A stretch of 59,065 nt of DNA, counting the filler, from Perkinsus olseni (lineage: Eukaryota): the NCBI GenBank assembly GCA_013115125.1. It is 2 parts of 2 records of this genome, joined end to end, with 100 filler letters (N's around TTAATTAATTAA, not from the genome) between each part and the next. Parts side by side here need not be neighbours in the genome. Positions count along the whole stretch, not along the records: positions 29,698 to 59,065 come from JABANN010000432.1; 1 more part is not named here. One strand, 5' to 3'. Positions 48,408 through 56,728 of this stretch are shown here, piece by piece. The position numbers and the translations under genes were made by a program. The notes under the pieces are model-generated. The model worked only from the letters and a program-made list of their open reading frames with translations. It had not been told where the DNA came from and did not search any database. How positions within the stretch are numbered: the first letter of the stretch is position 1; each line of letters starts with the position of its first letter.

Positions 48408-48732
48408 ATGTCGATCATTTTCCGTCTCTTCGCTGTCCTCCTGCTGCTGATTCCCTCTACTGTTACTATTGCTTCGGCTTCGGCGGCCGCCAGAGGGACC
48501 ATCTCGACCGAGCTCGAGACTCTTATGACGTCGTTAAGAGCTAAGAAGGCATCAAAGAATGCGACCACTAGACGCAACGGCAGCGCCATCCCTAACAGGA
48601 GGTCTCCTGGCAGCTCTGATGAAAGTGGGTCAAGCGTGATCAGCGCTTTTTGGTCATTGTTGTTTCGCGTCAGGCTTGTCGGAGATCCTCGGCGTGCTCA
48701 AGCGCGTTGTTACTGGTCGCCGCAGTCTGTGA
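48408..48732 (+). CDS. Small secreted two-helix protein family, member A (91 aa)
   Basis: Exons 48408-48624 + 48674-48732, phase-1 intron gtgggt..cag: MSIIFRLFAVLLLLIPSTVTIASASAAARGTISTELETLMTSLRAKKASKNATTRRNGSAIPNRRSPGSSDESLSEILGVLKRVVTGRRSL*. Confidence 0.75.
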
Positions 48733-49421
48733 GGATGGTGATGATGTTCATGACCTTTGACCTCGATGCTTGCTACGGCTATCCTCGTCTTATCTGATCT
48801 TTTCAAGAAGAAGTTATTTCCGATGATTTTGACTGTACTCACACTAAGAGTGGTTGTAAAAACACAACTGCGTCCCTCTTGTTATCCATTCTTACCGTCT
48901 TCTGTGGCGGTAGCATGTAAATACCCCAAATCGAAGAACCGAAGGAAGCCGATTTTGCTGGTTACTGTTTTGCTGCTGTATGTGACGAAACATTGCTCAG
49001 GACTTCCCATTATCGTCATCACCATGCTTTATCGTTTTCCATGAGTATTGTTTTCACATTGGCACCAGCAGCAGTAGTAGTGGTATTGTTATCGTGAGTA
49101 GAAATCGGTGAAAGAGTAGTGATTATGAATTTTTCGTCATACCAATAATTGTTCTGTAGTCCTGATCGAGGGCGATCAACTTTCTGAGCTCATAGTAGTT
49201 CTTCTGTGACGGTGCGTGGTCCGTACGAGGACGTGTAACTGGTCTTTTTTACTGTCATTGTAGAAGACGCTGACAACGCGTGTCTGGTTACCATTGTCTT
49301 AACTAGTGCCCTGTGCGCTTTTCCGATGTGAAATTACAAATAACGCACAGTCGTATTATTATGACGAATTGTTAAAGTCAAGGGTCCGCCCGATTCTCGA
49401 GCCACCTTGGCGGCAGCGGTC

Positions 49422-49620
49422 ATGAAATGGTTTTCGCTGCTGCTGCTGGTCCTTGGCTACTGGGCGATTCTTGAGAAGAAACCGTTGATTCGACGCCTCC
49501 GATAGTGTTATGACGGACATGATTAGGAATGAGCGAGTTCAAATGGTGATTCGCTTTTCAACGAAGACGATGGCTTGGAGGTCGACCGAGTCATTTTTGA
49601 GGTCTTGGATTTTGTGTTGA
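49422..49620 (+). pseudogene. Probable decayed member of the small secreted protein family
   Basis: MKWFSLLLLV / frameshift / LATGRFLRRNR*FDASDSVMTDMIRNERVQ resembles member D (LRWFALLLLSCLVTTG..YEQMMADV) and member F (MMTDLVARRNEQ); downstream VIFEVLD resembles helix 2. Confidence 0.4.
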
Positions 49621-49686
49621 TGGTTGGGCCTGCCTTCAAGAGTATTGTTGTTGTGCCCCCTTCAGTTGCGCTCTGTTGGGTTCCTG

Positions 49687-50171
49687 ATGGCTTCTCGCCG
49701 GTTTTGGAGCATTATCAGTATCGTGACTGTGTTCATAATCATCACAGCGTCGTGGCTGCCTGTTAATGCCGTAGAGCCAAGGGAAGGTGTTGATAAGTTG
49801 TACTCGTCGATGATGTCTGGCCTAAGTGCCAAGCAGCACAGGCTAGACAGAAGGCTTAAAGGTGAGGGGACTTCGAGAGGCTTGTTGAGGCGTCCTTGTC
49901 ACATGGCCTCCTGCTGCTGGCCGCCTTTGACTGAATCAAGTATGGCATAGTATGGAGCCCCGTAGCTGTCTTTGCACGTTATAAGTGTCAGCGGCGACTT
50001 GGTCGTAGACCAGTTGATACGAGTATTAGCGATCTTTTGGGCGTCCGCTGTGATTTTTCCACGAGAAGGCGTGTAGTGTTCCTTGCTGGCTCCGCTGCTT
50101 CGGTGATGACGACGTTTTCAGGTCTCCGATCTGTGCTTGAGGTCCTCGACGACAACACTAGCGCTTCTTAA
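49687..50171 (+). CDS. Small secreted two-helix protein family, member B (74 aa)
   Basis: Exons 49687-49861 + 50122-50171, phase-1 intron gtgagg..ttttcag: MASRRFWSIISIVTVFIIITASWLPVNAVEPREGVDKLYSSMMSGLSAKQHRLDRRLKGLRSVLEVLDDNTSAS*. Confidence 0.72.
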
Positions 50172-53930: not shown

Positions 53931-54227
53931 ATGGGCTTCCTTCGTCGCCTCGTGCTGTGTATGGCCGCTAACCTCCTTCTCACTGTTTCCGCGTTGCCTC
54001 GCTCTGGTGGCAGCGGAGGATCCCCACCGGTGATGGGAGTTGGAAACCAGGCTGAGGTTGATATTGACCAAGTGATTTCATCGCTAGGTTTGCCGAAGGC
54101 GTCCTTAAAGGGCGGGAGAAAGAGCCCTAGTAAGTCGCGCTATATCACAAGCAGTTCATTTCCGTTGCTGTTAGGTCTGGACGAGGTCTTGAAAGCCATC
54201 GAGATTGGCACGAGCGTGGAGCGCTAG
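53931..54227 (+). CDS. Small secreted two-helix protein family, member E (83 aa)
   Basis: Exons 53931-54129 + 54175-54227, phase-1 intron gtaagt..ttag (45 nt): MGFLRRLVLCMAANLLLTVSALPRSGGSGGSPPVMGVGNQAEVDIDQVISSLGLPKASLKGGRKSPSLDEVLKAIEIGTSVER*. Confidence 0.78.
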   Translation: MGFLRRLVLCMAANLLLTVSALPRSGGSGGSPPVMGVGNQAEVDIDQVISSLGLPKASLKGGRKSPSKSRYITSSSFPLLLGLDEVLKAIEIGTSVER

Positions 54228-55186
54228 TCGCCATCCTAGAGTCTACCTCATGCTGCGCTACCGTTCTCTATCAACTCTATCCCATCCTCTTCGACTAATA
54301 CTGTCACGACCGGTTTCGTTCATACTCGTTAGTAGTGGCCGCTGTTGTTATCTGATCTTAGCTGAGAAATGTCACTGTTGTTTCCGAGATAAGTTTTGGA
54401 CGAGACTGTTGTAGACATTAGTCGTAGTAAGACACTGTTGGTGTATTAGAATTCAGCCCACAGCCGCTTTGCATGCGTGGCGGAGCCCGCTGGTTGTCGC
54501 TCATCTTTTCGTAAGAGCAAAACAAAAAACCCATTATTACATCAGCCATGGGGAATACGTCTTCTCCATATGGAGGTGCCGTATTCTTCGTAATTTTCTC
54601 TACCCCAGCGAAATTTTATAGCAACTTTTGAGGTTCATTCCTTTGTACTATCTCTGTGGCTCTCGGGTATCTGTTGTCTGTAAGATGTTATCGGGCTCGG
54701 CGCTGTTCTGGATGTCACAGCATTATCGATCGTTGCTTATGAGAAGTGCTGCTTGAACTGATGGTTGTTCATTCGAAGGAATTTCTGCGGCTAAGTTTTC
54801 TTGTTTTCTTGAGTTGGTGACAGTGTTCAATACTTGGAGAGCTTCCTTGTTAATAAGTTAGATGATCGAACGACATTCTCATGGTCTTTGAAGTCAAAAA
54901 CACGGTCCTGAGGACGCTTCGAGGTTGGAGAGGTTCACCAATTCCGGTTATGCGAATATTTCGTGCGTCGTTTGTGTGGTATGTGTGAGAGACTGTTATG
55001 TTTTCGCTTCGCGCGTTCAAACTGTACGTGAATGTAACCGACGGTGCTGCGGTATCATGGCGCGCGCGTGTGCCTCAATCTTGAAACCGTTGTCGGACGA
55101 CGAGGGCGTTGTGCACATACTTGACATGTTGCTCCAGTGCCACTCGAATGTCCCAAGACCTTTTTTACAGATTTGCTAGGTTCCGC

Positions 55187-55513
55187 ATGCGGATTCTCAC
55201 CCGATTGATCTTCCTGCTCTCCATCCTCTTCGCCCTTCTACCGGCTGCTACCGCCGCTGTATTATCGGTCGAACAAGTGTATGAGCAGATGATGACCGAC
55301 TTGGTGGCTAGGAGGAACGAGCAGCTTGTCGTTCGCAGGGTGGAGAAGATTGCACGCGGTGTTGCAGGTGGGCTCCGATGGTCATTGCTCGCATGAACTT
55401 TATGCAGAAGCTCGCTCTCATCTCGGTATCGACCTTGCTTGAAAGCGCTACTGTTCTCTGTCTCAGGTCTCGCCGCTGGCCTAGGTGCTCATGTCAGTCA
55501 GGAGTGGAGATAA
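55187..55513 (+). CDS. Small secreted two-helix protein family, member F (75 aa)
   Basis: Exons 55187-55367 + 55467-55513, phase-1 intron gtgggc..ctcag: MRILTRLIFLLSILFALLPAATAAVLSVEQVYEQMMTDLVARRNEQLVVRRVEKIARGVAGLAAGLGAHVSQEWR*. Confidence 0.78.
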
Positions 55514-56440
55514 ACACGATAAGCATTTCTGAAGAGGATGAATTTTCGATATGAAGTTGGTGCGTACTAGCGCCGTCCATAGTAGACGAAGATGTGCTTT
55601 TTGCTGTATATACCGATTATTTATTTTGAGTGCTCTTTCGTGCCGTTCATACCATACCGTTCGAAGATGCGCTCTCGTGGCGTAATAATAATTTGTAAGT
55701 GTTTGCTCGGCGTATCGTAAGGCAGATGACTTTTTGGTAACGGAAGTTTGTGATGATCCCTCAAATTTTGAGTTGTCATGAGTGAAGTGGAGTTGGGGAG
55801 GACCGTCATGGAGTCGCTTAGGATCGCGAGGTAGAAGTGAGAAGTGTGGGGAACTCTTCGATAATGGAAAATCCGATTGAAGGGTGAAGAAGTTATTCGG
55901 GCGCTTCGTTGAGGCGTTCGACCATCAAGTTCTCGTCATAATGTTGGTTAAAGATATCTTGTTAATAAACGACGAGATTCGTCGCTATGGGAGAGGCGCT
56001 CAGTATTGTACGCCATCTCAACGGCAGGGGAATATCCTCGACCTTCTAAGCCCCCCCAAGTCTCTCCGAGCGGCTCCTGAAAGGCAGTACTACGATGCGC
56101 GCCGTATGAGCTTTGTATCGCTTAATATATTCGACCTTCGGCGGAGGCCTTTCTTGCCCGTAATAGCTGCTACGTGGATAACGAGAGCCGTGTGGACCAC
56201 GCGATCGCTGTGCCACTTCGCTAGCATCAGTATGTGTGCTGCGCTCACTCAAAGGCTTCAACTCGAAGCACGCGCTCGCCAAGATACTGGTCGTTTCGAA
56301 ACGGCTGGAAGCGCTGTTCAGAAACACCACAGACGTACAGCTATGTTCACCGTCGTCATTTGTTCATTCATGCTAACTTGGACAATCCTGGCAAAGTGTT
56401 GCTTTCAGACTCGCACTCTTCGCTCCTCTGCTCCTTCCCA

Positions 56441-56728
56441 ATGCCCTCACTGCGTTCTGCACTGCGCACCTCTATGGTTACTGCTCTGCTCGGAACTCAC
56501 CAAGTATCCGCTGCAGCCACCCGTTTCAAGGACATCGAGACTATAGTTACATCCATTAGGGAGACTAAGAGGAGCCGAGAAAATTCGAGAGGACCGAGTA
56601 CTTTGCGTTCTACGTCGCGCTGTGTGTGTGCCTCGTCGATCTTTCCTTGTTCAGGTCATTCTGAGGTCCTCGCTTCGATCCGCGAGGCATCCAAGATTTC
56701 GAGCCAGAAGGCGCACCTGACTTATTGA
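56441..56728 (+). CDS. Small secreted two-helix protein family, member G (76 aa)
   Basis: Exons 56441-56597 + 56655-56728, phase-1 intron gtactt..ttcag: MPSLRSALRTSMVTALLGTHQVSAAATRFKDIETIVTSIRETKRSRENSRGPSHSEVLASIREASKISSQKAHLTY*. The signal peptide is weaker than in the other members. Confidence 0.68.
   Translation: MPSLRSALRTSMVTALLGTHQVSAAATRFKDIETIVTSIRETKRSRENSRGPSTLRSTSRCVCASSIFPCSGHSEVLASIREASKISSQKAHLTY

What the first reader, a model, noticed from the sequence alone, without database searches (positions are those of the whole stretch)
48510..56728. Helix 1 and helix 2 look like an internal repeat separated by dibasic sites: possible prepro-peptide precursors
Seen: both helices follow h-x-x-h-h-x-x-h, most clearly in G (IETIVTSIRET vs HSEVLASIREA) and E (IDQVISSL vs LDEVLKAI). 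The linkers carry dibasic pairs (A KK, RR, RR; B RR; C RR, KKR; E RK; F RR, RR; G KR; D has none in the linker). The conserved core has no Cys. Established: signal peptide + pro-segment + dibasic site + short amphipathic peptide is the layout of kexin/prohormone-convertase-processed pheromone, hormone and cytolytic peptide precursors. Inference: these genes may release short amphipathic peptides, or fold as helical hairpins that oligomerise. Either would be an unusual system for a protist.
Basis: partly seen in the sequence, partly recalled or inferred. Interest (0 to 1): 0.72.

Follow-up and report, generated by a model that had tools for sequence, protein, structure and literature searches.

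The report
Perkinsus secreted two-helix protein array
Seven neighbouring genes of the clam parasite Perkinsus olseni are real, spliced and expressed, and encode an undescribed family of small, probably secreted proteins with two amphipathic helices; one arginine pair is conserved across species, but whether the proteins are cut there into peptides is still open.

Summary
The seven genes (A-G) are real. RNA contigs show one phase-1 intron in each, always just before helix 2, and spliced-leader ends on five. Five spliced models are identical to P. olseni 'hypothetical' proteins; relatives were found only in Perkinsus or unnamed records. The helices are amphipathic (12 of 14). The 'internal repeat' holds weakly for A/C/E/G only; B/D/F form a second type that alternates with them along the array. 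The listed dibasic pairs exist but are not more frequent than the 29% Lys/Arg linkers give by chance (p 0.33-0.53). One pair, ending the conserved helix-1 extension, is present in 5 of 7 genes and kept in 7 of 7 cross-species comparisons (others 4 of 12). Against kexin-type cytolytic precursors: no kexin or amidating-enzyme signature in the genome, aliphatic residues after the site in B/C/F, one continuous amphipathic stripe across the 'linker' in B and D, and helix-2 charges from -3 to +4. Best reading: abundant secreted interface-coating helical proteins acting largely intact (0.45); cleavage at the conserved pair by a non-kexin protease is a strong rival (0.30).

The parts
48408..48732 (+). 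Gene A (type I), 91 aa; exon 1 48408-48624, intron 48625-48673, exon 2 48674-48732; helix 1 core 48513-48536, helix 2 core 48676-48699; ends with a Gly-Arg-Arg motif
   Evidence: joint in 3 of 3 contig runs, spliced-leader end at AG 48358; identical to P0019; orthologues P0027 (P. marinus PMAR012038), P0028/P0030; coordinates
48570..48575 (+). Central dibasic pair of A (RR; KR in P. marinus, RR in the JGI record)
49687..50171 (+). Gene B (type II), 74 aa; intron 49862-50121; central RR 49849-49854; deepest RNA contigs of the array; no stand-alone protein record
   Evidence: joint in 3 of 3 contig runs, spliced-leader end at 49664; exon 1 orthologue inside P. marinus model P0014; no record found
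50893..51511 (+). Gene C (type I), 164 aa, with an extra Thr/Ser/Pro-rich segment before helix 1; intron 51332-51455; central RR 51286-51291
   Evidence: joint in 3 of 3 runs, leader end at 50863; identical to P0004; orthologues P0012, P0014 (P. marinus), P0013 (P. chesapeaki)
51512..53059 (+). Long transcribed stretch after C, read as its 3' UTR (contigs break at the CAT repeat 51818-51878); no further family member in it
   Evidence: equal depth on both sides of the repeat; profile scan of the window finds only the seven genes
53157..53433 (+). Gene D (type II), 68 aa; intron 53314-53383; no dibasic pair in the linker; poly(A) at 53828
   Evidence: joint in 3 of 3 runs, leader end at 53138, poly(A); exon 1 fused to E in records P0001/P0003
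53931..54227 (+). Gene E (type I), 83 aa; intron 54130-54174; RK at 54117-54122 at the position of the central pair
   Evidence: joint in 3 of 3 runs, leader end at 53873; identical to P0002
55187..55513 (+). Gene F (type II), 75 aa; intron 55368-55466; RR at 55310-55315 and central RR 55334-55339
   Evidence: joint in 3 of 3 runs; identical to P0020; orthologues P0010 (P. chesapeaki), P0011 (Logan)
56441..56728 (+). Gene G (type I), 76 aa; intron 56598-56654; KR at 56567-56572 (not the central position); weak signal-peptide hydrophobicity; lowest depth
   Evidence: joint in 1 of 3 runs; identical to P0009; best 11-residue hydropathy 1.3 vs 2.5-3.3 in A-F

Best explanation
A Perkinsus-specific array of seven paralogous genes, probably grown by duplication of a two-gene unit (type I A/C/E/G alternating with type II B/D/F). 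Each is trans-spliced from the run of transcription into its own mRNA (shown for five), translated with a signal peptide (inferred from hydropathy) and secreted in large amounts (inferred). The working unit is a roughly 20-residue helix with an acidic amphipathic start and a basic end closed by an Arg pair, followed by a second amphipathic helix: joined by a loose Gly/Pro/Ser spacer in type I, continuous with the first in type II. I think the proteins most likely act largely intact as interface-coating proteins: the hydrophobic stripes lie on a lipid or other hydrophobic surface or pack against each other, and the basic segment binds anionic lipid or wall/matrix polymer, at the parasite surface or in the host-parasite space. 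Shown: genes, splicing, family, amphipathicity, conservation pattern. Inferred: secretion, intactness, binding partner, location.
For: B and D carry one amphipathic stripe across the whole helix 1-linker-helix 2 span (moment 0.44 and 0.39 over 33-34 residues, shuffle p 0.001 and 0.004); AlphaFold2 gives F as one helix through both RR pairs and extends A's first helix to the central RR, where basic residues suit a helix end (established knowledge). Sequence on both sides of the pair is conserved: 11 of 11 residues before it in C against P0012 and P0013, 10 of 10 after it in F against P0010 and P0011. The residue after the pair is Leu/Ile/Val in B, C, F and in all their orthologues, which fits a hydrophobic stripe and is disfavoured by convertases (recalled). 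Helix 1 plus its extension is the family signature (helix 1 vs helix 1 mean score 15.6, p 0.0014; helix 2 vs helix 2 6.0, p 0.086; leave-one-gene-out recovery). D and G lack the central pair yet are expressed. Dibasic counts follow from composition. No kexin P-domain, pro-domain or active-site pattern in the genome, none of 30 examined of 74 S8 matches has kexin motifs, while a control family split by introns was found.
Against: The central pair is the most conserved element (15 of 16 residues identical, against 39 of 64 in helix 1 and 41 of 56 in helix 2) and stays dibasic through an R-to-K change in P. marinus A, where its neighbours are only about half conserved. In type I it is followed by a variable, disordered spacer, as a cleavage site would be. 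F's span shows no single stripe to the exon-2 helix (p 0.54). No binding, location or protein-level data exist; the P. marinus orthologues are absent from a whole-cell proteomic table of 3,541 rows, which says nothing either way because the known surface protein MOE1 is absent too. Structure models rest on 5 and 9 sequences and include the signal peptide.
Confidence: 0.45

Rival explanations
1. Propeptide precursors cut at the conserved central Arg pair by a non-kexin protease (one of the parasite's many subtilisins or aspartic proteases, or a host enzyme), releasing a conserved helix-1 peptide and a variable helix-2 peptide that act as surface-active (repellent-like) building blocks or signals.
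For: Central pair in 5 of 7 paralogues at offsets +16 to +19 from helix 1, kept in 7 of 7 cross-species comparisons against 4 of 12 for the other pairs (Fisher p 0.007, site chosen after seeing alignments). Helix 2 has its own exon in 7 of 7 genes, like conserved-pro/variable-peptide precursor families (recalled). In A both helices end in RR. A weak helix 1/helix 2 repeat in A/C/E/G. 74 S8 and 102 aspartic-protease matches in the genome.
Against: Positional clustering among paralogues is only p 0.07; D and G lack the site; continuous stripe in B and D; aliphatic residue after the site in B, C, F; an N-glycosylation sequon directly after the site in A; no processing enzyme identified; Arg is generally well conserved and the comparisons share ancestry.
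Confidence: 0.3
2. One reading: kexin/prohormone-convertase substrates that release cationic cytolytic or pheromone peptides from helix 2.
For: Layout of signal, helix, basic linker, helix; A's helix 2 is amphipathic, +3 and ends in Gly-Arg-Arg in P. olseni and P. marinus, the look of an amidation signal (recalled).
Against: No kexin or amidating-enzyme domain found. Exon-2 peptide charges are +3, -2, -3, +4, -2, 0, +1, and A's changes to -1 with loss of one Arg in the JGI orthologue. Two helices, not the three or more repeats of fungal KEPs.
Confidence: 0.08
3. The Arg pair is part of an apicomplexan-type maturation/export motif (TEXEL RRL, cut by an ASP5-like protease), making these host-directed effectors.
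For: B has RRL in P. olseni and P. marinus; C has RRI and F has RRV; Perkinsus is a myzozoan parasite; large aspartic-protease set. UniRef labels P0027 'RxLR effector protein', an unexplained label, not a test.
Against: ASP5 needs Leu at P1 (PMC4764566, passages); only 1 of the 5 central sites fits, A has Asn/Ser there and E has RK. Two aspartic-protease loci checked gave no plasmepsin V match (2 of 102).
Confidence: 0.07
4. Structural cargo of a secretory granule or extrusome that condenses into a lattice, type I pairing with type II, with trimming of the basic linker on maturation as in ciliate trichocyst/granule lattice proteins.
For: Strict alternation of the two types along the array (1 in 35 by chance; types matrix); deep RNA contigs; two helical halves around a basic connector is the ciliate layout (recalled, not tested).
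Against: Ciliate precursors are several times longer (recalled); no sequence match; contig depths of neighbours differ 4- to 85-fold, not the equal amounts of fixed pairs, though depth is a poor measure.
Confidence: 0.1

Closest known systems
Perkinsus hypothetical proteins: P. olseni P0019, P0004, P0002, P0020, P0009; P. marinus Pmar_PMAR012038, PMAR012039, PMAR002522; P. chesapeaki FOL47_002702, FOL47_002703
   Same: Five are identical to genes A, C, E, F, G; the others are orthologues, with neighbouring locus numbers that fit the same gene order.
   Different: All unnamed and uncharacterised; B and D have no stand-alone record and appear only fused to neighbours; nobody seems to have grouped them as a family (searches listed in the full report).
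Fungal KEX2-processed repeat proteins, including Ustilago maydis Rep1 repellents (PMC6339444, PMC3133707; passages read) and Candida Ece1/candidalysin (PMC5784256; listing only)
   Same: Secreted precursors, Cys-free amphipathic peptide units, KR/RR pairs; Rep1 peptides coat the cell surface, the role I favour here.
   Different: Those carry three or more repeats in one chain, each flanked by a site, and need KEX2; here two unlike helices per chain, one conserved site in 5 of 7 genes, no kexin found, no sequence similarity.
Toxoplasma TEXEL / ASP5 substrates (PMC4764566; passages read)
   Same: Secreted myzozoan proteins with an Arg-Arg-aliphatic triplet that may lie anywhere in the chain.
   Different: Strict RRL only in B; no ASP5 orthologue shown here.
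Amphipathic-helix interface proteins (exchangeable apolipoproteins, Toxoplasma GRA2; recalled, not tested)
   Same: Small, secreted, Cys-free, amphipathic helices; 21-23 residue spacing of the two helices in B, D, E, G.
   Different: No sequence or fold match; lipid binding not shown; a works-like comparison only.
Perkinsus marinus MOE1 (Pmar_PMAR027036; passages of PMC8062965, PMC4858233, bioRxiv 10.1101/2021.06.11.447996)
   Same: Small, highly expressed, peripheral Perkinsus protein of unknown function.
   Different: Another locus; it is none of the relatives found.

Membership tests
Kexin/convertase-processed prepro-peptides (fungal KEPs, alpha-pheromone, Rep1) | N-terminal signal peptide | tested here: met
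   Hydrophobic 11-mer 2.5-3.3 in A-F, only 1.3 in G; hydropathy only, no dedicated predictor available
Kexin/convertase-processed prepro-peptides (fungal KEPs, alpha-pheromone, Rep1) | KR/RR/KK site directly before each released peptide, conserved | tested here: inconclusive
   One conserved pair in 5 of 7 genes, kept 7 of 7 across species; no site before helix 1; 2-17 residues from helix 2; counts not above composition
Kexin/convertase-processed prepro-peptides (fungal KEPs, alpha-pheromone, Rep1) | Three or more repeated peptide cores per chain (KEP definition, PMC6339444) | tested here: not met
   Two helices per chain, weakly alike only in A/C/E/G
Kexin/convertase-processed prepro-peptides (fungal KEPs, alpha-pheromone, Rep1) | STE13-type XA/XP dipeptides after the site (optional feature) | tested here: not met
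   One XP dipeptide in E only, of 5 central sites
Kexin/convertase-processed prepro-peptides (fungal KEPs, alpha-pheromone, Rep1) | A KEX2-family protease in the organism | tested here: not met
   0 matches for PF01483 and PF16470, 0 for the active-site pattern, 0 of 30 examined S8 loci with kexin motifs; control family found; assembly may be incomplete, 44 S8 matches not examined, motifs recalled
Kexin/convertase-processed prepro-peptides (fungal KEPs, alpha-pheromone, Rep1) | Cleavage shown on the protein | not testable with these tools
   No peptide-level data reachable; protein table of PMC13623125 lacks the orthologues
Cationic amidated cytolytic peptides (frog/wasp type; features recalled) | Mature peptide amphipathic and consistently cationic | tested here: not met
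   Amphipathic in 5 of 7 helix-2 windows above the 90th control percentile, but charge positive in 3 of 7 and not conserved
Cationic amidated cytolytic peptides (frog/wasp type; features recalled) | C-terminal Gly-basic amidation signal and an amidating enzyme | tested here: inconclusive
   Signal-like end in A only; PF03712 not found, but that search had no positive control
TEXEL/ASP5 substrates | RRL motif | tested here: not met
   1 of 5 central sites (B)
TEXEL/ASP5 substrates | ASP5/plasmepsin V orthologue | tested here: inconclusive
   2 of 102 aspartic-protease matches compared with PDB; neither listed plasmepsin V
Amphipathic interface-binding proteins (apolipoprotein/GRA2-like; works-like only) | Long or tandem amphipathic helices | tested here: met
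   12 of 14 helices; continuous stripe in B and D
Amphipathic interface-binding proteins (apolipoprotein/GRA2-like; works-like only) | Sequence or fold homology | tested here: not met
   No Pfam family at cut-off, no PDB sequence hit below E 0.13, no Foldseek match, no usable Atlas hit
Amphipathic interface-binding proteins (apolipoprotein/GRA2-like; works-like only) | Binding to lipid or wall polymer | not testable with these tools
   needs bench data

The most novel reading that the evidence does not exclude
The array is a secreted peptide-precursor system of a myzozoan parasite: abundant two-type precursors are cut at one conserved Arg pair by a convertase that is not a kexin, and the released type I and type II helical peptides act together at the parasite surface or on the host. 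I know of no dibasic peptide-precursor system in Perkinsozoa, dinoflagellates or apicomplexans (own knowledge; one search listed no paper that pairs Perkinsus with these enzymes among its 25 rows).
Probability: 0.3. Interest if true: 0.8.

Novelty: new variant of a known kind. Interest (0 to 1): 0.5.

Why it matters
These transcripts assemble from three independent RNA data sets, two of them filed under another organism than the third (probably infected hosts; inference), so the proteins are likely abundant at the host-parasite interface of a notifiable shellfish disease (status recalled), yet two of the seven genes are missing or mis-fused in the protein databases and none has a name. If intact, they are a new family of candidate surface/wall proteins and diagnostic markers for Perkinsus. 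If cut, they would be the first convertase-like peptide system in this lineage and would point to an unknown processing enzyme among the parasite's expanded proteases.

Tried and rejected
MOE1 identity: rejected, other locus. P0026, a 1,182-aa repeat protein with 17 matched stretches: rejected as a compositional hit (Glu/Val-rich repeats with Lys clusters, no signal peptide). L049/L050: chance matches inside bacterial ABC-permease genes. L002, L006: no family member. First metagenome scan: 79 pattern matches, none confirmed. Search for B/D relatives: no candidate. Further paralogues in the genome: single-protein and DNA searches found only this array; sensitivity to remote paralogues is limited, since E and F did not find their own neighbours. 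ESM Atlas: best 0.77 (below the noise mark) and no usable hit. Foldseek on the low-confidence A model: nothing. Complex prediction, four copies of F residues 24-75: verdict 'no answer', score 0.01, alignment not used; neither for nor against. Raw-read run X23: 2 reads laid, uninformative. First amphipathicity run used a register one residue off for B, D, F; corrected. Helical hairpin: not seen in two AlphaFold2 models, but contacts could not be inspected. Earlier-findings look-ups near the site, by sequence and by words gave nothing on this array.

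
Full report
What is there. Contigs of three public runs laid on 47800-57600 show exactly seven joints, all GT..AG: 48625-48673, 49862-50121, 51332-51455, 53314-53383, 54130-54174, 55368-55466 and 56598-56654; six are in 3 of 3 contig runs, G's in 1 of 3; a fourth run of raw reads gave 2 reads and no information. 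Loose 5' ends matching the end of the Perkinsus 22-nt spliced leader (sequence in PMC9399869, passages) sit at 48358, 49664, 50863, 53138 and 53873 among the rows shown (24 rows were not shown), each on an AG, and the first ATG after each is the start I use. Poly(A) lies at 53828. The bin 55975-56301 has no depth in any run, so the signal is RNA, not DNA. All seven introns are phase 1 and fall just before helix 2. The spliced products are 91, 74, 164, 68, 83, 75 and 76 aa; five are identical to Perkinsus olseni 'hypothetical' proteins, while B and D have no record of their own. Depth ranks B highest and C and G lowest in all three runs (joint depth in X1: B 18,224, E 4,826, A 4,321, D 2,569, F 846, C 215, G 115); the tool warns that depth is a poor measure of expression and I laid no housekeeping control, so 'abundant' is an inference.

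One family, two types. Pairwise identity is low, but a 19-residue profile around helix 1 built without a given gene and its orthologues ranks that gene above all but 0, 0, 0, 0, 1, 0 and 11 of 57,703 background windows (A-G), and the shared intron position agrees. B, D and F share Y-x-x-M-M in helix 1 and group together in the helix-1 score matrix; A, C, E and G form the other, looser group. The two types alternate strictly along the array, which 4+3 genes do by chance once in 35 orders; the simplest history is duplication of a two-gene unit (inference). No further member was found in the window or the genome (limited sensitivity).

Relatives. Word-based and exhaustive searches returned 1, 12 and 8 proteins. 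Apart from one spurious repeat protein (P0026), all named ones are Perkinsus: P. marinus orthologues of A, C and exon 1 of B, P. chesapeaki orthologues of C and F; unnamed records add an A-like (P0028/P0030) and an F-like (P0011) sequence, presumably from other Perkinsus species (inference). Locus numbers and a neighbouring Myb/SANT-like gene fit conserved order. No Pfam family reaches its cut-off in 11 of 11 proteins; PDB sequence, Foldseek and ESM Atlas searches gave nothing usable.

Test 1, amphipathic helices: confirmed. 12 of 14 have all four hydrophobic positions and 12 of 14 exceed the 90th percentile of control moments; F and G helix 2 fail. Helix-1 anchors were picked by eye, helix-2 anchors are fixed by the intron.

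Test 2, internal repeat: partly. Against control segments with the same hydrophobic pattern (pools of 130 and 68 from 59 unrelated ORFs, mostly proteases), helix 1 and helix 2 are alike in A/C/E/G (all pairs p 0.002-0.012; within genes p 0.001-0.005), not in B/D/F (p 0.58-0.95), and not convincingly in all seven (all pairs p 0.15-0.86; within genes p 0.014-0.11). The controls are not matched for helix caps, so convergence remains possible; there is no intron before helix 1 that would mark an exon duplication.

Test 3, dibasic sites: two results that pull apart. Their number is what the linkers' composition gives (6 of 7 genes vs 5.5 expected, p 0.53; 11 pairs vs 9.5, p 0.33; RR alone 6 vs 3.6, p 0.12). 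But five genes have a pair at one position, 16-19 residues after the start of helix 1 (clustering p 0.07), and this pair stays dibasic in 7 of 7 cross-species comparisons (two P. marinus copies of C counted once), against 4 of 12 for the other pairs, counted by eye from the alignments (Fisher p 0.007, post hoc, comparisons not independent). A's KK is RQ in both orthologues, A's third pair is lost in both, C's KKR is lost in P. chesapeaki.

Is it a cut site? For: it is the best conserved element (15 of 16 residues), tolerates only R-to-K, and in type I precedes a spacer that varies in length and sequence and is disordered in the A model. Against: D and G lack it; in B and D the hydrophobic stripe runs unbroken from helix 1 to helix 2 (p 0.001, 0.004; A, E, F, G no; C 0.06); AlphaFold2 draws F as one helix (pLDDT 82.7, pTM 0.37) and ends A's first helix at the pair (pLDDT 63.7, pTM 0.23); flanks are near-invariant in C and F; the next residue is Leu, Ile or Val in B, C, F, disfavoured by convertases (recalled). 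The genome shows no kexin P-domain, pro-domain or active-site pattern, none of the 30 best of 74 S8 matches has kexin motifs (motifs recalled), and a control family with introns was found; an incomplete assembly or a divergent enzyme can still hide one. No amidating-enzyme domain was found (no positive control). Exon-2 peptides range from -3 to +4 and change sign between orthologues of A, unlike cytolytic peptides. The RRL rule of Toxoplasma ASP5 (PMC4764566, passages) fits B only.

Protein-level data. The P. marinus whole-cell complexome table (3,541 rows) and nine other held supplements of PMC13623125 do not list the three orthologue loci (file 1 was cut when stored; one PDF and figures unreadable), although neighbouring loci are listed; MOE1 is also missing from the whole-cell table. 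This is compatible with secretion or small size and decides nothing.

How it most likely works. See Best explanation: secreted, largely intact amphipathic proteins that coat an interface, the Arg pair closing a basic helix end (0.45). Cleavage at that pair by a non-kexin enzyme is the main rival (0.30); granule-lattice cargo (0.10), kexin-type cytolytic or pheromone precursors (0.08) and TEXEL-type export (0.07) follow. The readings are not exclusive: type I genes look more like precursors, type II more like continuous helices.

Literature. Ten searches. Six locus tags and accessions gave 0 papers (PMAR012038 was checked only in the supplements). None of the listed titles or abstract starts describes this family. 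Read as passages only: bioRxiv 10.1101/2021.06.11.447996, PMC4858233, PMC8062965, PMC9399869, PMC2868825, PMC4764566, PMC6339444, PMC3133707, PMC13623125 (plus supplement searches); PMC5784256 as a listing. Subscription papers on P. olseni proteomes and transcriptomes and bioRxiv supplements could not be seen and may list these genes. Statements on convertase preferences, helix caps, GRA2, apolipoproteins, ciliate granule proteins and frog/wasp peptide precursors are recalled.

Verdict. A real, expressed, genus-restricted and apparently undescribed family of small secreted-type amphipathic proteins with one conserved dibasic pair; not a member of the kexin-processed peptide families on the tests I could run, but it may work like them. 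Interest 0.5; 0.8 if processing is shown.

Noticed in passing
   Followed up: partly
window 49687-50171 and 53157-53433: Genes B and D have no stand-alone protein record; D exon 1 is fused to E in P0001/P0003 and a B-like exon 1 is fused to C in P. marinus P0014, annotation errors by the RNA joints.
   Followed up: yes
window 51512-53059: About 1.5 kb of transcribed, apparently non-coding 3' UTR after gene C with a CAT repeat; each mRNA ends just before the next gene's trans-splice acceptor.
   Followed up: partly
window 50983-51213: Gene C has an extra Thr/Ser/Pro-rich segment that diverges fast between species while the core behind it is nearly invariant in three species.
   Followed up: partly
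window 45095-45583 (+): Myb/SANT-like ORF (weak Pfam hits) upstream of the array; a Myb/SANT protein with a neighbouring locus number (PMAR012036) is in the P. marinus proteome table.
   Followed up: partly
G000, whole genome (L007-L048): Large expansions of mostly intronless S8 subtilisins (74 matches) and aspartic proteases (102 matches); several S8 copies have unusual active-site motifs.
   Followed up: partly
window 13885-15594 (-): Cdc14-like dual-specificity phosphatase gene in two long frames.
   Followed up: no
window 34074-35018 (+): Iron-only hydrogenase large-subunit domain (Nar1-like).
   Followed up: no
window 36000-40150 (+) and 21300-28300 (-): Two tandem intron-rich esterase/lipase-like genes, and tandem copies of a multi-pass membrane-protein gene (read by eye from ORFs).
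   Followed up: no
window 17047-17132, 29598-29697: Runs of N; the window joins two contigs at 29598-29697.
   Followed up: no
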